Positions 9,395 through 15,681 of a stretch of DNA of 48,490 bases are shown here, in pieces. Source of the stretch: Lambdavirus PDP110P1. The stretch lies in the sequence record OZ035751.1, one strand, 5' to 3'. The notes under the pieces were generated by a model. That model searched no databases. It saw nothing but the letters and a program-made list of their open reading frames with translations, and was not told where the DNA came from. The position numbers were made by a program, and so were the translations under genes. Each line of letters begins with the position of its first letter. Positions within the stretch are counted from its first letter, which is position 1.

Positions 9395-10876
9395 ATGGCA
9401 ATTTCGCTATCAAAAATCGCCCAGATGCTTCCCGGCGTACTGAAGGCGACAGGGACAGCTATTGATCTCAATGGCCTGTTCCTGACCGACAGCGCATACG
9501 CGCCGGTTGGTGCAGTACCCTCATTTTCCAGTGCGGATGAGGTAAAGGCGTACTTCGGCAGCGCGTCGATTGAGTACACCGCCGCGGTGCTGTATTTCGC
9601 CGCATTCACCGGTAAAACACAGATGCCTGGCAAGCTGTATTTTAGCCGATTCAATACCGCAGCAGTGGCGGCATTCCTTCGTTCCGGATCGCACGCAGCG
9701 ACCACGCTGGCACAGCTCAAGTTGCTTTCTGGTACGTTGACTCTGACAGTTGACGGCACGGAGGAGACTTCTGCGGCTATCAACCTCAGCGGCGCCACCA
9801 GTTTTGATAATGCGGCAGAGCTGATTGAAACCGGCATTGGCTCCTCGGTTGTAGTGACCTGGGATAGCGTGCTGAAGAAATTCATCATCACCTCTGCCAC
9901 CACGGGCGTGGATAGCACCATTACCTTTGCCGATGAAGGTACGCTTGCTACGGGTCTGAAACTGACCGAAGCGACCGGCGCGGTGATCTCTCAGGGTGCG
10001 GCGCCGGCAGTGGTTGACGATATCTTTACTGCCATTCTGGCCAAAGAGCAGGACTGGGTAACATTCTCCACGACGTTCGCTGTCACCAAAGACCAGGCTA
10101 ATGCGTTTGCGCTCTGGACAAACAGCCAGAACCACCGCTTTGCCTATGTCCCATGGGACGCATCAGGAACGGCAATCGTGGCGGGCAGCTCGAATGCACT
10201 GGTGTACGACATCATCAACACCTACGCCTATAACGACACCTGCCCGGTGTATGGTTACCCGAACCACGCAGCAAACGCGATGGGGTTTGTGGCTGCGCTG
10301 AACTTCACGCAGGCCAATGGTCGCTGTTCGCTGAATGGTCGTCAGGTGTCCGGCCTGCTGCCGATGATCAGTAACGATACTGATTACGAGGCGGCTAAGG
10401 CCAACGGCTATAACTTCTACGGCAACTATGCCTCGAATGCGGTCGAAACCAACCAGTGGGCGCCCGGCTCTATTACCGGTGATTACGCTTGGCTTGACGC
10501 CTGGGCGGGTCAGGTATGGGTAAATGCTCAGCTTCAGGCGGCTCTTGTTGCGCTGTTCCAGCAGGCGAGCAATCTGCCCTTCGCAGCAGCCGGGAAAGCT
10601 CGTATTGAGTCGTGCATGAAGCCGACCATTGAGCAATTCAGGGCGTGGGGTGGCATGACGGCAGGAACCGATCTTGACCAGTCGCAGATCGACCAGATTA
10701 ACGCCATCGCTGGTGTCGATGTTACGGATTCGCTTATGGCTGAAGGTTATTACGTCTACATCGGCCCGTTCACCGCGGCAATGCGCGCCGCGCGTACCAA
10801 GCCAACGGTTTACTTCTGGTACACCGACGGCGGGATCATCCAGGGTATCACCGTTAACAGCACGGAGGTGCAGTAA
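9395..10876 (+). CDS. tail sheath protein (putative)
   Basis: 493 aa followed by a 147-aa tube-like gene, chaperone and tape measure: the gene order of a contractile tail. Confidence 0.5.
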   Translation: MAISLSKIAQMLPGVLKATGTAIDLNGLFLTDSAYAPVGAVPSFSSADEVKAYFGSASIEYTAAVLYFAAFTGKTQMPGKLYFSRFNTAAVAAFLRSGSHAATTLAQLKLLSGTLTLTVDGTEETSAAINLSGATSFDNAAELIETGIGSSVVVTWDSVLKKFIITSATTGVDSTITFADEGTLATGLKLTEATGAVISQGAAPAVVDDIFTAILAKEQDWVTFSTTFAVTKDQANAFALWTNSQNHRFAYVPWDASGTAIVAGSSNALVYDIINTYAYNDTCPVYGYPNHAANAMGFVAALNFTQANGRCSLNGRQVSGLLPMISNDTDYEAAKANGYNFYGNYASNAVETNQWAPGSITGDYAWLDAWAGQVWVNAQLQAALVALFQQASNLPFAAAGKARIESCMKPTIEQFRAWGGMTAGTDLDQSQIDQINAIAGVDVTDSLMAEGYYVYIGPFTAAMRAARTKPTVYFWYTDGGIIQGITVNSTEVQ

Positions 10877-11319
10877 TGGCCGGTCAAAATATTACGTCGG
10901 CAGACGCCATCATTGAGCTGGTCATTGCTGAGCTCTACCCATCCGGGTTTAACCTGGAACAGTTCGAAGCGCAAAACATCTTCGAAATGGGTGATACCGA
11001 TATGGCAGAGTACCAGCGTACTGCTGACGGTAAACTGCTGGGTGGTTTTGTTTATGGTGATCTGCCGTGGACTTTCCATCTGGCGGCATCATCCCCGTCG
11101 ATTAAGTACATCGACAACTGGCAAACCACGCAGATGACCACGCGGTCTGTGCTGCGTGTCAATGGGACTGTGATCCTGCCGTCGCTGGGTAAAAAGTACA
11201 TCATGACTAACGGTATCCTGCAGCGCGCACGCCGCATGCCGTCTGCCGGCCGTGTTCTTCAGCCGGTAACTGGACTCATCCAGTGGGAAACTGTCACCCC
11301 GGCAGACTACTCAGCATAA
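10876..11319 (+). CDS. tail tube protein (putative)
   Basis: 147 aa directly after sheath-like gene. Confidence 0.5.
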   Translation: MAGQNITSADAIIELVIAELYPSGFNLEQFEAQNIFEMGDTDMAEYQRTADGKLLGGFVYGDLPWTFHLAASSPSIKYIDNWQTTQMTTRSVLRVNGTVILPSLGKKYIMTNGILQRARRMPSAGRVLQPVTGLIQWETVTPADYSA

Positions 11320-11353
11320 AAAAAATCAGCCCGGCTAAGTCCGGGCTTTTTTA
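11318..11353 (+). terminator. rho-independent terminator
   Basis: hairpin AGCCCGG-CTAAGT-CCGGGCT followed by TTTTTTAT, directly after the tube gene stop. Confidence 0.7.
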
Positions 11354-11501
11354 TACCCGCAATACCCCGCGCTTCACACGCGCACATCACAACACAGAAC
11401 CTTTCAGGATGACCCTTGAGGATACCGGTTTGGCTATCGGTGCCTTTCTGTGGGCCGGATTCCTGTGTGACAAGGTTCATCACTAAAAGGTAATTACCGA
11501 G

Positions 11502-12257
11502 ATGTCTAATATCATCCCCATGAATTACGATGACCGTTCATTTCCTTTTACTGCTGACTGCTGGTTCAATGCCACGGTTGCCGCAAAGCATCACGGCAAG
11601 CTACCAAAGGACTGGCTAAAGACTGAGGCGACAAAAATTTATATCGCCGAATTGGCTGAGGAGCTTGGAATTGCTGGCTCCGGCGTAAAAGAGGATTTTT
11701 CTCCCCTTTTAGTCAGAGTGGAGAAAGGGCGAAACGGCGGGACCTGGCTTCATCCGGAGTTGGCGGTGGAGTTCGCCCGCTGGTTGTCAGTAAAATTCGC
11801 CCGAGCCTGTGACCGACACATTAAAAATCTGCTACTGAGTAAAAACTTCCAGCTCACTGAAGATCAAATTGTCGGCCTGATGGTCTGTCAGCAACCCACC
11901 TCTTGGGAAAAACGATTTAAAGACCCGTTCTACCAGGCGCTGTCGAAAATGTCCGGCCTTCCTTACTTTGGTCATGTCGGTGGTTGCCCGGCGCTGTTCG
12001 GTCAGATCACCGCTCGATGGGTGTACGGTGTCGCACTTCCCGATTATGTCTATCAGGCAGCAAAACAAGCAGCGGGCGACAGCAGAGAGAAGATTCACCA
12101 GCACCTCAAGCCTGATGCGCTGGATAAGGTCGAGCAGCAATTGATCGCCGTTACCAATATCGCGAATTGCAGCATTGACCAGAAGGACTTCGAGGCCCGT
12201 TGCATGGCCGCGTTTCCCGTTAAGGGTCAGATGAAACTGCTGTATGCGGCGGCGTGA
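11502..12257 (+). CDS. KilA-N domain protein (moron)
   Basis: 251 aa; N-terminal KilA-N-like region (…GTWLHPELAVEFARWL…); sits between two terminators inside the tail module. Confidence 0.6.
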   Translation: MSNIIPMNYDDRSFPFTADCWFNATVAAKHHGKLPKDWLKTEATKIYIAELAEELGIAGSGVKEDFSPLLVRVEKGRNGGTWLHPELAVEFARWLSVKFARACDRHIKNLLLSKNFQLTEDQIVGLMVCQQPTSWEKRFKDPFYQALSKMSGLPYFGHVGGCPALFGQITARWVYGVALPDYVYQAAKQAAGDSREKIHQHLKPDALDKVEQQLIAVTNIANCSIDQKDFEARCMAAFPVKGQMKLLYAAA

Positions 12258-12514
12258 CCATGAATAACCGAATCGTTGAGTGTGCCTCCAGAGCGGGGCG
12301 CGACTTCTCAGAGTTCATGACTGGCGAGAAGAACATGATGGAGGCGCTGCGTTCTGCTGAAGAGTTCACCGAGCAGTTACGCATTCACGGCTGCGTTAAT
12401 CACCATTTCGTCAATTTCATGATGATGAAAGCGATCATGAAGGTATTTGACGACTTGCGCCGAGAGGAGTTGCGGGAAGAACGACGACGCAAACGTGAAG
12501 AGAAGAAGAAATGA
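12254..12514 (+). CDS. hypothetical protein with basic/acidic C-terminal tail
   Basis: 86-aa ORF translationally coupled to the KilA-N gene; C-terminus EELREERRRKREEKKK. Confidence 0.45.
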   Translation: MTMNNRIVECASRAGRDFSEFMTGEKNMMEALRSAEEFTEQLRIHGCVNHHFVNFMMMKAIMKVFDDLRREELREERRRKREEKKK

Positions 12515-12537
12515 GCCCACCACGGTGGGCTTTTATC
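12513..12537 (+). terminator. rho-independent terminator
   Basis: GCCCAC-CACG-GTGGGC followed by TTTTAT. Confidence 0.65.
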
Positions 12538-12589
12538 CTCCCCCGCATCCCTGCTAATCTGTCGAAAACAAACCAACGGGGATAGGGAT

Positions 12590-12970
12590 ATGAAAAAGGT
12601 TCTATTGGTTGCAGCAATAGCGGTTGTACTTGCCGGTTGTGCTTCTGGCGGCAATAAGTCGATTGAGCAAGAAACGCAGATTGGCGTTCAGAGTAAAATA
12701 ATCAAAGGAAAGACGACGAAGCAAGAAGTTAAGGCTGCATATGGAGATCCAGCTGGGGTATCAATCTCCAGTGATGGGAAAGAACAGTGGCACTATGTTT
12801 TCACAAACACACAGATCAGCGGGAAAGCATTTATTCCCATCTATGGACTATTTGATAACGGCGCTACTACCAACATGAAGCAGCTTATAATCGTGTTTAA
12901 GGGCGATATTGTAGATAATTACTTATTTAATAATTCAAATACAGAAGTTAAATCAGGCCTCCTAAACTAA
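12590..12970 (+). CDS. outer-membrane lipoprotein, BamE/SmpA-OmlA-like (moron)
   Basis: signal peptide with lipobox LAG-C; core IKGKTTKQEVKAAYGDPAGVSISSDGKEQWHYVF resembles the BamE/OmlA fold motif; visibly AT-rich; own terminator. Confidence 0.6.
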   Translation: MKKVLLVAAIAVVLAGCASGGNKSIEQETQIGVQSKIIKGKTTKQEVKAAYGDPAGVSISSDGKEQWHYVFTNTQISGKAFIPIYGLFDNGATTNMKQLIIVFKGDIVDNYLFNNSNTEVKSGLLN

Positions 12971-12988
12971 CCAACTTCCATGTTATAG

Positions 12989-13014
12989 ACCTCGCTCCGG
13001 CGGGGTTTTTTATT
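12989..13014 (+). terminator. rho-independent terminator
   Basis: CCTCGC-TCCG-GCGGGG followed by TTTTTTAT. Confidence 0.7.
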
Positions 13015-13041
13015 GCCAGATAACTCATTCAGGAAACAAAA

Positions 13042-13518
13042 ATGGCTCGTAAAAGCATCGTATTCACGGTTGAAGCAGATAACCGTGACAAGGGTAAGCA
13101 GTTCAAAATCACCGAAATGCCGGCGAGAAAGGCCGAAGAGTGGGCGATCCGCCTGGCGTGTGCCGTGATTGGCGCCGGCGTTACCGTTCCCGACAATATG
13201 ATGATGGCCATCGGTGCTGCGGTGGCGCCGGCCCCAGCCGAGGATAACGCAGAAGCTCGCGAGCTGTACGAAAGCGTGATGGCCAGCGGTATGGCCGGAC
13301 TCGCTCAGTGGGGTATCACTTCACTGGCTAAAGTTCCGTTCGCACAGTCAAAGCCTCTGCTTGATGAGTTGCTTGGCTGCGTGAAATTCCTCGGCGGTAA
13401 TGGTATCGAAACAGCGCTTGTTGACGAAGGTCAGATCGAAGAAATCAGCACCTGGTCGCGCCTGAAAATCGAAGCCTTCAAACTCCATATCGCTTTTGTA
13501 GCAGCCACCGCAAGTTAG
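13042..13518 (+). CDS. tail assembly chaperone (putative)
   Basis: 158 aa immediately upstream of tape measure gene; RBS AGGAAA; a -1 frame stays open to the tape measure start. Confidence 0.45.
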   Translation: MARKSIVFTVEADNRDKGKQFKITEMPARKAEEWAIRLACAVIGAGVTVPDNMMMAIGAAVAPAPAEDNAEARELYESVMASGMAGLAQWGITSLAKVPFAQSKPLLDELLGCVKFLGGNGIETALVDEGQIEEISTWSRLKIEAFKLHIAFVAATAS

Positions 13519-13716
13519 AAATTCCCCTATCCGTCCCGGAAGATTCAGATCGCGGCTTCATACAGTATGCGAATGTACCGCGCACCATCGCCGCGGTGAT
13601 CTCCGGGAAAATGGCGACACTCCACGAACTGGACACGGTATACAGCGTTCAGGATATGTGGTGGCTGATAGAAATAATGACCGTGGATAACACCAACAGA
13701 GCCATAGCAGCGGAGA

Positions 13717-15681
13717 GTGATCATGGCAGCAACGGTAATTGACGCCCTCCTGGTTACGCTGGGCCTTGATACTTCTCAGTTCCGCAAAGGCCAGCAGGAA
13801 GTCAGTGATGACCTGAAAAAGCAGCGCGAAGATGCCAAAAATACCGCCAAGGAAATGGCGGAGCAGGGCAAGAAAGCCGCTTCGTTCTTCAGCAGCATAA
13901 AGACGGAATTGCTGGCACTAACTGGTGTTACTGTCACTGCCGGCGGCCTGATAAGCTTTGTGAAAAGCACCACTTCCGGCCTGATGGATTTATCGATCCA
14001 GTCGAAAGTGCTGGGGCTGTCAGCCCGTGAGCTTGATGGTTGGTCGAAGTCAGCAGAGGCAGCAGGGAGTTCAGCTGAGAAGATAAGCGCTTCTCTGCAG
14101 GGGTTTCAGGGCGCTATACAGGGCGCGAGGGTCGGCGATTACAGTAGCTCTATTTTTGGTGGTCTGGCGCAATTAAATGCTCTGACGGGCCAGAATTTTG
14201 ACGTGTGGGGACAGGATGCCAGTTCCCTGGCCAAAACATCCCTTGATGCGCTACGGAAAATCAGCGATCCAAACCTTCGCCGGCAGGTCGGGTTAAGTCT
14301 TGGATTTGATGATGCAACCTTGCAGCGTAATCAGGAAGGGAAATTCCTGCCTGACGTTGATCGCCTGACTAAAAGCTCCGGCATTACAGACGCCTCAACC
14401 AAAGGCGCAAAGGAAGTTACAGCTGCATGGGCGGAGCTGGGACAAAATCTTGACACGGTAAAAAACCAGATTTACGTGGGTTTGATACCAACCATTCGCG
14501 ATCTGAATGATTTCCTCATAGAGTGGTCGTCTGGTAACGCAAAATCCTCTTCATTCTTCAAAGAGCTGAAGCGGGACATTAACGACATTACTGGTATTGA
14601 CCTTGGTAGCTGGACGCTATCAGGCGATCTGCGCAACCTCAAAGATAACTTTTCCATGCTCGGAAAAGTGCTCAATCACCTGGGTAACGCTTTAAACGAG
14701 CTCAATAACGGCAACTTCTCCAAGGCTGCCGATGAGTTTAAAAAGGCGTGGTATGGCACTGAAGACGGAAAGCCTACCGGTAATGATGCGCTGCCCGGAG
14801 TGACCAAGGCAGCCGAGCAGGCGCTGAAGAAAAACGGCGGAACACTGGATTTTAAACCTGATCAGGACTCTGCGTATCTAAGCCCGCAGCAGCAGGCAAC
14901 GCAGAAAATGCTGGATGCAGTTAAGTTTCAGCCGCTTCCTGAACAGCGCAGGCAGCAGCAGGATGAGAGAGACTACTGGGAAAGCACCAAAAATCTCCTT
15001 TCAAAAATCGCTGATGCCCTGATCTCTCCAGCTGGCGCGGCAACAATGCAGCCAGATACCTCGGGATACCAGCCAAACGTCCCGCTTAACGCACAGGCTG
15101 CTCGCCTTGGCGCCAAAGGAAGGGCATTTCTTCAGGCTATGGCTGGCGAATTCGGGGCGCTGGAAGGTAAATATGGACTTCCCGCTGGGCTGCTGTCTTC
15201 GGTGGCTGGTACTGAATCGGGTGGCGACCCGTTCGCAGTATCCCCCAAAGGGGCGAAAGGCCCATTCCAGTTTATGGATGGAACTGCCAGAGACTTGGGT
15301 TTGAAGGGGATGGACGTTTATGACCCCCACAAGTCAGCTGATGCCGCTGCAAGATATTTGCGCTATCTGCTGGATGCTACTGGTGGCGATCTGGAAAAAG
15401 CTCTTGCCTCCTATAACTGGGGGCTCGGAAACGTCCAGAAGAAAGGCATGGACAACCTACCGTCGGAAACTCGCAATTACGTCCCTAAAGTCATGGCCGG
15501 AATGCGCCCCGGCGCCGGGATGGCCGTAGACCGAGCGATGCCCGTGCAGTCCGGTGCGACTTATCAGTTTTATGGCACCAAAATCACCACCCAGGCCCAG
15601 AACGTGGAACAGCTTACCAGCGACATCAAAAAGCACGGCGACAACCGTGTCATGCTTTTGGCTGGCTACTCAGGACAATAA
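13717..15681 (+). CDS. tail tape measure protein with C-terminal lytic transglycosylase (SLT) domain
   Basis: 654 aa; coiled-coil-rich N-terminal part; SLT motif …GTESGGDPFAVSPKGAKGPFQFMDGTARDLG…; ATG at 13723 has the better RBS. Confidence 0.7.
   Translation: MIMAATVIDALLVTLGLDTSQFRKGQQEVSDDLKKQREDAKNTAKEMAEQGKKAASFFSSIKTELLALTGVTVTAGGLISFVKSTTSGLMDLSIQSKVLGLSARELDGWSKSAEAAGSSAEKISASLQGFQGAIQGARVGDYSSSIFGGLAQLNALTGQNFDVWGQDASSLAKTSLDALRKISDPNLRRQVGLSLGFDDATLQRNQEGKFLPDVDRLTKSSGITDASTKGAKEVTAAWAELGQNLDTVKNQIYVGLIPTIRDLNDFLIEWSSGNAKSSSFFKELKRDINDITGIDLGSWTLSGDLRNLKDNFSMLGKVLNHLGNALNELNNGNFSKAADEFKKAWYGTEDGKPTGNDALPGVTKAAEQALKKNGGTLDFKPDQDSAYLSPQQQATQKMLDAVKFQPLPEQRRQQQDERDYWESTKNLLSKIADALISPAGAATMQPDTSGYQPNVPLNAQAARLGAKGRAFLQAMAGEFGALEGKYGLPAGLLSSVAGTESGGDPFAVSPKGAKGPFQFMDGTARDLGLKGMDVYDPHKSADAAARYLRYLLDATGGDLEKALASYNWGLGNVQKKGMDNLPSETRNYVPKVMAGMRPGAGMAVDRAMPVQSGATYQFYGTKITTQAQNVEQLTSDIKKHGDNRVMLLAGYSGQ

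What the first reader, a model, noticed from the sequence alone, without database searches (positions are those of the whole stretch)
13425..13738. Open -1 frame linking the tail chaperone to the tape measure start
The chaperone ORF stops at 13518, but the -1 frame is open from 13425 to about 13738, an extension of ~100 codons, as expected for the conserved chaperone frameshift product (lambda G/GT-like). I could not find a canonical X-XXY-YYZ slippery heptamer in the overlap, so if a frameshift occurs its site is unusual.
Basis: partly seen in the sequence, partly recalled or inferred. Interest (0 to 1): 0.35.

Follow-up and report, generated by a model that had tools for sequence, protein, structure and literature searches.

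The report
Unannotated tail-chaperone frameshift, minimal slip site
This prophage makes a longer version of its tail assembly chaperone by a programmed -1 ribosomal frameshift, as most tailed phages do, but here the slip site has shrunk from the usual seven-base motif to four bases (T TTT at 13494-13497) and no database record annotates it.

Summary
The chaperone ORF is 13042-13518. The -1 frame is open from 13425 to 13739, with its stop at 13740-13742, 20 nt inside the tape measure gene (ATG 13723).

- The -1 frame is coding: dN/dS is 0.08-0.15 against relatives, and it matches phrog_3976 (E 1e-26).
- Purifying selection extends into 13521-13595, where the -1 frame has no ATG, GTG or TTG. An independent start therefore cannot explain it.
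- About 27 lineages were compared. In each, the chaperone and the -1 peptide meet at one invariant Phe codon (F152, 13495-13497).
- Most relatives carry a canonical heptamer at that position, either U_UUU_UUN or G_GGU_UUU. P2 E/E' uses U_UUU_UUG.
- The window's Klebsiella/E. coli clade keeps only C_GCU_UUU_GUA. This is the tetramer U_UUU, the only Z_ZZN motif in phase within the overlap.
- The codon before Phe ends in T in 22 of 22 lineages.
- The -1 peptide is homologous to BcepB1A gp15', the annotated E' frameshift C-terminus (hhalign 98.8%).
- No stimulatory RNA structure was found.

The predicted products are G (158 aa) and GT (233 aa). This is an ordinary but unannotated member of a known mechanism, with a degenerate slip site.

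The parts
13042..13518 (+). Tail assembly chaperone ORF ('G'; 158 aa, 16.9 kDa), the zero-frame product
   Evidence: ORF. Matches phrog_1932 'tail assembly chaperone' at E 3.8e-48. Pfam Phage_TAC_15 matches only at E 0.08, below threshold. The AlphaFold model (pLDDT 73.5) matches myovirus tail assembly chaperones in BFVD at E about 1e-6. The gene lies between the tube and tape measure genes.
13494..13497 (+). Proposed -1 shift site T_TTT (U_UUU) in the context ATC GCT TTT GTA. tRNA-Phe reading UUU at 13495-13497 re-pairs with UUU at 13494-13496.
   Evidence: It is the only Z_ZZN tetramer in phase in the overlap, and there is no heptamer. It is homologous to the U_UUU_UUN or G_GGU_UUU sites of about 22 other lineages. 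GCT TT[TC] is kept in all 84 close loci. The base before TTY is T in 22 of 22 lineages, against a background third-position T of 6-39%.
13483..13515 (+). Interval to which the shift is confined by comparison with relatives
   Evidence: In relative L081 (93% identical chaperone) the -1 frame opens only 4 codons before the T run. The zero-frame stop lies 7 codons after it. In Pandoraea, Neisseria and L095 the -1 frame opens exactly at the T run.
13425..13742 (+). Open -1 frame (105 codons plus the TGA stop)
   Evidence: There is no ATG, GTG or TTG in this frame before 13596.
13497..13742 (+). 'T' part: 81 codons read in the -1 frame after the shift, plus the stop. The predicted GT fusion joins 13042-13497 to 13497-13739 (233 aa, 25.3 kDa).
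   Evidence: Matches phrog_3976 at E 1.2e-26. dN/dS is 0.08-0.15 over 13521-13716 and 0.04-0.34 over the start-less stretch 13521-13595. hhalign against BcepB1A gp15' gives 98.8% probability, E 1e-16, aligned from residue 1. Products computed.
13723..15681 (+). Tape measure protein with a C-terminal SLT lytic transglycosylase domain. Its start overlaps the end of the -1 frame by 20 nt.
   Evidence: Pfam SLT at E 1.1e-21 (residues 480-577), phrog_2013 and phrog_2276. RefSeq starts the CDS at this ATG.
10876..11319 (+). Tail tube gene (E217 gp32-like), upstream partner in the usual tube - chaperone - tape measure order
   Evidence: Pfam E217_Gp32 at E 1e-15. The sheath gene (DUF3383 / E217_gp31_N) lies just upstream at 9395-10876.

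Best explanation
The region encodes the two-product tail assembly chaperone of an E217/BcepB1A-type myovirus prophage.

Most ribosomes translate 13042-13518 and release the 158-aa chaperone. A minority slip back one base at GCU UUU (13492-13497), where tRNA-Phe moves from UUU at 13495-13497 to UUU at 13494-13496. They then read UGU AGC AGC ... in the -1 frame up to TGA at 13740-13742. This gives a 233-aa fusion: chaperone residues 1-152 plus an 81-aa 'T' domain.

By analogy with lambda G/GT and P2 E/E+E', the shared N-terminal part would coat the tape measure protein. The rare T domain would recruit the tube protein, so the frameshift rate would set the ratio of the two products.

What is shown here:
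- the -1 frame is coding;
- it has no start of its own;
- the junction with the chaperone frame is at the T run;
- the site is conserved.

What is inferred:
- the slip is ribosomal;
- tRNA-Phe is the tRNA that slips (A-site re-pairing, as on Z_ZZN tetramers in E. coli);
- the efficiency is low;
- the roles of the two products in assembly.
For: 1.

2. The -1 frame codes for protein. It matches phrog_3976 at E 1.2e-26. Differences from relatives fall mainly on third codon positions, with dN/dS 0.08-0.15 over 13521-13716.

3. It has no independent start. No ATG, GTG or TTG occurs in the -1 frame from 13425 to 13595, yet that stretch has dN/dS 0.04-0.34. Acetobacter phage phiAO1 has no start codon anywhere in its -1 frame. 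In several other lineages the first start lies well inside the conserved part. Of 153 cluster representatives that match the T part, nearly all are ORF calls of 38-98 aa with ragged N-termini.

4. The junction is pinned. The -1 peptides of 24 lineages align from the residue after the conserved Phe, for example FCSSHRKLEI, FFYSRRRLDL and FFAGRQRIEV. In three lineages the -1 frame opens exactly at the T run. In a 93%-identical relative it opens 4 codons before it.

5. The site is conserved at the nucleotide level.
- F152 is invariant in the protein alignment.
- The preceding codon is GCT, TCT, GAT, GGT or AGT. The amino acid varies but the third base is T in 22 of 22 lineages. This includes a 69% GC phage in which only 6% of third positions are T.
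- Relatives carry U_UUU_UUU/G/C/A or G_GGU_UUU at this position. P2 E/E' has GGT TTT TTG, with the zero-frame stop 8 codons after the first TTT.

6. In the window, T_TTT is the only in-phase Z_ZZN motif in the overlap. In E. coli, U_UUC and U_UUU rank second and third among shift-prone tetramers, and IS elements use them (PMC4066793). Z_ZZN is the minimal -1 site (PMC5009743). The enterobacterial clades carry exactly U_UUU or U_UUC.

7. There is homology to an annotated case. BcepB1A gp15 E and gp15' E' are annotated 'pre-tape measure frameshift protein'. The T part matches gp15' at hhalign 98.8%, E 1e-16.

8. The gene order is sheath - tube - chaperone - tape measure.
Against: - There is no canonical heptamer. 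The P-site codon GCU cannot re-pair with CGC.
- In E. coli reporter assays, tetramers without a stimulator were barely above background (0.147% against 0.112%). They reached 0.26-5.6% only with a pseudoknot (PMC4066793).
- I found no stimulator. The 107 nt downstream fold no better than shuffled sequence (z -0.19). The consensus fold of 7 relatives has no covarying pair. I saw no Shine-Dalgarno-like sequence upstream when reading.
- The efficiency could therefore be very low, or a stimulator remains unrecognised.
- There is no direct protein evidence.
- No database protein among the relatives reached covers both halves (best query coverage 67%).
- The chaperone part is only weakly similar to BcepB1A gp15 (hhalign 17.5%, E 0.0014) and falls below the Pfam TAC threshold.
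Confidence: 0.83

Rival explanations
1. The -1 frame holds a separate small gene, translated from its own start (GTG 13596 or ATG 13611), as RefSeq annotates it (43 aa, 13611-13742). No frameshift takes place.
For: PGAP calls WP_167877071.1 at 13611-13742. Many databases hold short stand-alone ORF calls for this region. The most conserved block, ATLHELDTVYSVQDMWWLIEI, lies downstream of 13611.
Against: The 25 codons upstream of the first possible start (13521-13595) are under purifying selection in the -1 frame. They align across distant lineages right back to the T run. Start positions differ among relatives and are absent altogether in phiAO1. Called ORF lengths range over 38-98 aa. The nucleotide-level conservation of NNT TTY would have no explanation.
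Confidence: 0.05
2. The fusion arises from transcriptional slippage. RNA polymerase adds one extra U in the T run, and ribosomes then read the edited mRNA normally.
For: Relatives carry T runs of 5-7 at the site. Runs of seven U or A are known to cause indels in mRNA (PMC4066793; PMC5009743). An inserted U would give the same fusion protein.
Against: The window has only four T, and sister enterobacterial clades have TCT TTC or GCT TTC, a run of three. Several lineages have G_GGU_UUU with four or five T. By established knowledge these runs are too short for polymerase slippage. What is conserved is a phase-specific tRNA re-pairing pattern (U_UUY after a codon ending in T), not run length.
Confidence: 0.04
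3. In this enterobacterial clade the canonical site has decayed. The shift either happens by a different mechanism or at a different position within 13483-13515, or it depends on a stimulator that is not an ordinary hairpin. Candidates are the invariant GCCACCGC element at 13504-13511 or the conserved nascent peptide KLHxxF.
For: Tetramers alone are barely shifty in E. coli. No downstream structure was found. GCCACCGC, 7 nt after the tetramer, is identical in enterobacterial lineages whose chaperones are only 54-63% identical. L148, H149 and F152 are invariant in the chaperone alignment.
Against: GCCACCGC lies in the dual-coding overlap, where both frames constrain it, so its conservation needs no further reason. 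The LHxxF motif is part of a predicted C-terminal helix and may be structural. No other slippery pattern exists in the confined interval. The required GT level may simply be very low.
Confidence: 0.08

Closest known systems
Burkholderia phage BcepB1A gp15 (E) / gp15' (E'), annotated 'pre-tape measure frameshift protein' and its alternative C-terminus
   Same: Both have the tail module order sheath - tube - chaperone - tape measure. The T part is homologous from the first residue after the shift (hhalign 98.8%, E 1e-16). The shift site is at the same place, after a Phe codon.
   Different: BcepB1A has the canonical AGT TTT TTC (U_UUU_UUC), while the window has only U_UUU. The chaperone parts are barely alignable (hhalign 17.5%). 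BcepB1A's zero-frame tail after the site is 37 codons long, against 7 here.
Phage P2 gpE / gpE+E' (-1 frameshift at T_TTT_TTG)
   Same: Both are myovirus tail chaperone pairs located between the tube and tape measure genes. In P2 the -1 shift occurs at GGT TTT TTG and the zero-frame stop follows 8 codons after the first TTT. Relatives of the window carry the identical heptamer at the homologous site (Neisseria, H. pametensis, L086). The end of the extension overlaps the tape measure start in both.
   Different: There is no detectable sequence homology. hhalign of the T-part family against P2 E' gives 0.8% probability, and no Pfam GpE family is hit. P2 E is 91 aa and E+E' 142 aa, against 158 and 233 aa here. 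The window lacks the heptamer.
Phage lambda gpG / gpGT (-1 frameshift at G_GGA_AAG, G:GT about 30:1)
   Same: The logic is the same: two products share an N-terminus, the longer is made by a low-level -1 shift near the end of the first ORF, and the pair lies just upstream of the tape measure gene (PMC5009743).
   Different: Lambda is a siphovirus, uses a canonical heptamer decoded by tRNA-Gly and tRNA-Lys, and shows no sequence similarity that I tested. The functional roles are transferred here by analogy only.
Z_ZZN tetramer -1 frameshift sites of IS1/IS3-family transposases (A_AAG, U_UUU, U_UUC)
   Same: Both are minimal sites where only the A-site tRNA can re-pair. U_UUY is among the three most shift-prone tetramers in E. 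coli and is used in nature (PMC4066793).
   Different: IS elements pair the tetramer with a downstream hairpin or pseudoknot, or with an upstream Shine-Dalgarno-like sequence. No such stimulator was found here.

Membership tests
Conserved tail assembly chaperone frameshift of dsDNA tailed phages (lambda G/GT type; Xu, Hendrix and Duda 2004) | Two overlapping ORFs lie immediately upstream of the tape measure gene and downstream of the major tail/tube gene | tested here: met
   Tube 10876-11319, chaperone 13042-13518, -1 ORF to 13742, tape measure from 13723. Three accessory ORFs sit between tube and chaperone in this phage only. In relatives the two genes are 10 nt apart.
Conserved tail assembly chaperone frameshift of dsDNA tailed phages (lambda G/GT type; Xu, Hendrix and Duda 2004) | The second ORF is in the -1 frame, overlaps the end of the first, and has no translation start of its own | tested here: met
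   The -1 frame is open over 13425-13739. No ATG, GTG or TTG occurs before 13596, yet that stretch is under purifying selection.
Conserved tail assembly chaperone frameshift of dsDNA tailed phages (lambda G/GT type; Xu, Hendrix and Duda 2004) | A canonical slippery heptamer X_XXY_YYZ lies in phase within the overlap | tested here: not met
   The window has none. Only the tetramer U_UUU is present, at 13494-13497. Most homologous loci do have a heptamer at that position. The canonical heptamer is not strictly required for this family.
Conserved tail assembly chaperone frameshift of dsDNA tailed phages (lambda G/GT type; Xu, Hendrix and Duda 2004) | Both ORFs, their frame relation and the shift site are conserved among divergent relatives | tested here: met
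   About 27 lineages from Enterobacterales, Burkholderia, Pseudomonas, Aeromonas, Acinetobacter, Neisseria, Helicobacter, Acetobacter and Vibrio were compared.
Conserved tail assembly chaperone frameshift of dsDNA tailed phages (lambda G/GT type; Xu, Hendrix and Duda 2004) | Two proteins are made in a fixed ratio, both are needed for tail assembly, and neither is in the virion | not testable with these tools
   This needs proteomics and genetics.
BcepB1A gp15/gp15' family (phrog_1932 chaperone plus phrog_3976 T part) | Sequence homology of both parts | tested here: met
   phrog_1932 at E 3.8e-48 and phrog_3976 at E 1.2e-26. The T part matches gp15' at hhalign 98.8%. The chaperone part matches gp15 only weakly (E 0.0014).
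P2 GpE / GpE+E' protein family (Pfam Phage_E / Phage_P2_GpE) | Sequence match to the family | tested here: not met
   No Pfam hit for either part. hhalign of the T-part family against P2 E' gives 0.8% probability. The region works like P2 E/E' but is not a sequence member.
Programmed transcriptional slippage | A long homopolymer run (typically 7 or more A or T) at the junction | tested here: not met
   The run is T4 in the window and T3 in sister clades.

The most novel reading that the evidence does not exclude
In the enterobacterial branch of this phage family the ancestral heptamer has been reduced to a bare U_UUY tetramer with no recognisable RNA stimulator, yet the T domain stays under strong purifying selection. 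Either tail assembly tolerates a GT:G ratio far below lambda's roughly 1:30, or an unrecognised stimulator raises the shift rate at a tetramer. Candidates are the invariant GCCACCGC seven bases downstream and the conserved nascent KLHxxF peptide.
Probability: 0.25. Interest if true: 0.45.

Novelty: new member of a known kind. Interest (0 to 1): 0.3.

Why it matters
The main value is for annotation. In this widespread Klebsiella/E. coli prophage group, and in most of its relatives (Acinetobacter Obolenskvirus, Aeromonas, Pseudomonas and Burkholderia phages), the T part is either missing or called as a ragged 'hypothetical protein'. Once it is even named 'transglycosylase'. The 233-aa fusion is recorded nowhere that I searched. 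Fixing the junction at 13497 gives a correct gene model.

There is also a smaller mechanistic point. One homologous site varies across the family from U_UUU_UUU to a bare U_UUU or U_UUC. That is a natural series for asking how little slipperiness a chaperone frameshift needs in E. coli-like hosts.

Tried and rejected
- **Downstream stimulatory RNA.** The fold of 13494-13600 is no better than shuffled sequence (z -0.19). RNAalifold on 7 enterobacterial relatives gave 9 pairs with no covariation. Rejected for lack of evidence.
- **Upstream Shine-Dalgarno-like stimulator.** None seen in 13465-13493 when reading.
- **Other slip sites.** The AAAA run at 13465-13468 is in the wrong phase for a -1 shift (AAA_A). 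It also lies outside the interval allowed by relatives.
- **+1 frame.** It is closed by stops in the window and not conserved in relatives.
- **Homology of the T part to P2 E'.** Not supported.
- **Pfam.** Nothing above threshold for either part.
- **PDB by sequence and by fold.** No meaningful match for the chaperone. Only BFVD predicted structures of myovirus chaperones match.
- **Naturally fused or annotated fusion proteins.** A search with the 233-aa product found none among close relatives. A library-wide search with the T part found one in-frame fusion at the T run (P0145) and one fused through an internal deletion (P0079). These are single metagenomic contigs, so I cannot tell real variants from assembly errors.
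- **The IMG/VR scan** returned almost only near-identical copies. Distant relatives came from the genome scan, protein look-ups and tblastn against phage records.
Full report
**What is in the sequence**

The ORF at 13042-13518 encodes a 158-aa protein. The frame one base behind it has a TGA at 13422-13424. It then stays open for 105 codons (13425-13739) and ends at TGA 13740-13742. The zero frame and the +1 frame both carry several stops between 13518 and 13742. The next gene starts at ATG 13723, with GGAG seven bases upstream, so the -1 frame ends 20 nt inside it. The 'about 100 codons' refers to the whole open stretch: 74 codons lie past the chaperone stop and 81 past the shift site proposed below.

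**Context**

The window is a Klebsiella/E. coli prophage. It is 100% identical over this region to E. coli 20KM2222 and about 97% identical to Klebsiella phage RCIP0114 and others. The tail module is of the Pseudomonas E217 / Burkholderia BcepB1A type:
- sheath with DUF3383/E217_gp31_N (9395-10876);
- tube, E217_Gp32 (10876-11319);
- the 158-aa protein, phrog_1932 'tail assembly chaperone' at E 3.8e-48;
- a 652-aa tape measure protein with a C-terminal SLT domain;
- a Dit-like protein and a gp41-like hub.

An AlphaFold model of the 158-aa protein (pLDDT 73.5) matches predicted structures of myovirus tail assembly chaperones (BFVD, E about 1e-6, TM 0.56-0.64). It matches nothing in the PDB. None of the records inspected for this phage group (RCIP0114, E. 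coli 20KM2222) annotates a frameshift. RefSeq calls a 43-aa ORF at 13611-13742.

**The -1 frame is coding**

Translated, it matches phrog_3976 (E 1.2e-26) and the C-terminal part of the 177-aa profile phrog_4774. I collected homologous loci from genomes, metagenomes and phage records. Over 13521-13716, the part that overlaps neither neighbouring gene, differences from relatives fall mainly on third codon positions of the -1 frame. One example is 15, 14 and 33 differences at codon positions 1, 2 and 3 against a relative whose chaperone is 63% identical. dN/dS is 0.08-0.15.

**It is not an independent gene**

In the window the -1 frame has no ATG, GTG or TTG between 13425 and 13595. Yet the 25 codons at 13521-13595 are themselves under purifying selection (dN/dS 0.04-0.34), and they align across distant lineages. 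The first possible start differs from lineage to lineage, and Acetobacter phage phiAO1 has none at all. A search of 1.84 billion representative proteins with the T part found 153 matches. Nearly all are ORF calls of 38-98 aa with ragged N-termini. That is what gene callers produce from a coding region with no real start.

**Where the frames join**

The chaperone alignment has an invariant Phe (F152, codon 13495-13497) at the end of a conserved LHxxF motif. In 24 lineages the -1 peptide aligns without gaps from that residue onward:
- window: FCSSHRKLEI
- Pandoraea: FFYSRRRLDL
- a Rhizobiales genome: FFAGRQRIEV
- Neisseria: FFATRQWPDL

In Pandoraea, Neisseria and one metagenomic contig the -1 frame opens exactly at this codon. 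In a relative with a 93% identical chaperone it opens four codons before it. The zero-frame stop follows seven codons later. Together these confine the shift to 13483-13515.

**The site**

At this position relatives carry one of two canonical heptamers.

| Heptamer | Lineages |
|---|---|
| U_UUU_UUU/G/C/A | Pandoraea, Neisseria, H. pametensis, BcepB1A, Pantoea PA-1, Pseudomonas Amjad and Orisa, phiAO1, Acinetobacter WCHABP12, Edwardsiella Edno5, Vibrio IKEMa6-1 |
| G_GGU_UUU | Aeromonas phages, B. thailandensis phiE131, two uncultured lineages |

P2 E/E', the textbook myovirus case, has GGT TTT TTG, with its zero-frame stop eight codons after the first TTT.

The enterobacterial clades differ:
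- the window has ATC GCT TTT GTA;
- sister clades have TCT TTC TTG or GCT TTC TTG;
- one has GAT TTT TCC.

What never changes is U_UUY. The codon before Phe is GCT, TCT, GAT, GGT or AGT, so the amino acid varies, but its third base is T in 22 of 22 lineages. Third-position T in those genes runs at 6-39%. The product of these frequencies is 10^-16. Shared ancestry makes that an overstatement, but the repeated amino-acid changes show the T was retained independently.

Among 84 close copies of this prophage every one keeps GCT TT[TC]. The following codon varies (GTA, GTT, ATA, TTA), and the -1 frame is intact in all of them. In the window, T_TTT at 13494-13497 is the only Z_ZZN tetramer in phase in the overlap, and the whole ORF contains no heptamer.

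**Mechanism**

The pattern fits -1 ribosomal frameshifting in which tRNA-Phe re-pairs from UUY to the overlapping UUU. The tetramer Z_ZZN is described as the minimal -1 site (PMC5009743). In E. coli the tetramer hierarchy is A_AAG >> U_UUC > U_UUU > others, and IS elements use U_UUY (PMC4066793). The enterobacterial clades carry exactly these two tetramers.

The predicted products are G (158 aa, 16.9 kDa) and GT (152 + 81 = 233 aa, 25.3 kDa). Their roles are inferred from lambda G/GT (PMC5009743), not shown here. In lambda, G and the G part of GT coat the tape measure, and the T part recruits the tube protein.

**The open point**

In the E. coli reporter study, tetramers without a stimulator were barely above background. 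They reached 0.26-5.6% only with a pseudoknot. I found no stimulator:
- the 107 nt after the site fold no better than shuffled sequence (z -0.19);
- a consensus fold over seven enterobacterial relatives shows no covariation;
- synonymous sites downstream are not unusually conserved (pS 0.4-0.7).

The octamer GCCACCGC, seven bases after the tetramer, is invariant in enterobacterial lineages. It lies in the dual-coding overlap, which is enough to explain its conservation. So either the shift rate is very low or something remains unrecognised. That is the only unusual aspect of the finding.

**Rivals**

- Independent initiation is contradicted by the points above.
- Transcriptional slippage would give the same protein, but runs of three or four T are too short. 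What is conserved is phase and tRNA re-pairing, not run length.
- A different site within 13483-13515 is unlikely, because no other slippery pattern exists there.

**Relation to known systems**

Burkholderia phage BcepB1A annotates gp15 'E' and gp15' 'E'' as the pre-tape measure frameshift pair. The window's T part is homologous to gp15' from its first residue (hhalign 98.8%, E 1e-16). The chaperone parts are only weakly similar.

There is no detectable sequence relation to P2 E' (0.8%) or to any Pfam family. The region therefore works like P2 E/E+E' and lambda G/GT and belongs to the BcepB1A gp15/gp15' family, but it is not a sequence member of the P2 GpE family.

No database protein among the close relatives covers both halves. 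One metagenomic contig encodes an in-frame fusion whose junction is the T run, GAA TTT TTA (P0145). This fits the junction proposed here, but as a single contig it may be an assembly artefact.

**Verdict**

This is an ordinary, unannotated instance of the conserved tail chaperone frameshift. Its slip site has been reduced from a heptamer to the tetramer U_UUU. It is useful for annotation and, mechanistically, a minor curiosity.

Noticed in passing
window 11320-13041: Three accessory ORFs sit between the tube and chaperone genes: a KilA-N/P63C protein (11502-12257), an 86-aa ORF (12254-12514) and a lipoprotein with a weak BamE/Cor-like match (12590-12970). Terminator-like hairpins bracket them at 11328-11347 and 12987-13008. 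In relatives the tube and chaperone genes are 10 nt apart, or the gap holds different cargo: pRha plus ORF11CD3 in L089, and a 558-nt ORF in RCIP0114. This looks like a moron insertion hotspot.
   Followed up: partly
window 13611-13742: RefSeq annotates a 43-aa hypothetical protein here (WP_167877071.1). The nr database names a 71-aa version 'transglycosylase' (P0001). Both are fragments of the -1 frame T part, and the name appears borrowed from the neighbouring gene.
   Followed up: yes
L111 191-751 (Logan SRR10342245): A 186-aa ORF (P0145) is an in-frame fusion of a distant chaperone and T domain, with the junction at the T run GAA TTT TTA. It may be a real always-fused variant or a two-base assembly error in a T7 run. 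P0079 (L112) is fused through an internal deletion instead.
   Followed up: partly
window 13723-15681: The tape measure protein carries a C-terminal SLT lytic transglycosylase domain (residues 480-577). Relatives swap it for a lysozyme-type (Phage_lysozyme2, L093) or a glucosaminidase-type domain (phiE131 annotation).
   Followed up: no
whole window; E. coli NZ_CP141750.1: One E. coli strain (2023CK-01482) has this phage both in its chromosome and as a separate 47,948-bp record deposited with the assembly. That suggests an excised or circular copy was present in the sequenced culture.
   Followed up: no
window 12980-13017: The 38 bases around the terminator hairpin just upstream of the chaperone gene are 100% identical in otherwise unrelated places: three E. 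coli chromosomes and Klebsiella phage vB_Kpn_RAH1.
   Followed up: no
L108, L099, L105, L098 (Acinetobacter WCHABP12, Aeromonas 4_D05 and vB_AsaM-56, Pantoea PA-1): These curated or RefSeq phage records annotate the chaperone and a separate downstream 'hypothetical protein' (once 'putative tail-fiber/lysozyme protein'). All of them have a canonical heptamer at the homologous site and lack a joined CDS. The missing frameshift annotation is therefore family-wide.
   Followed up: partly
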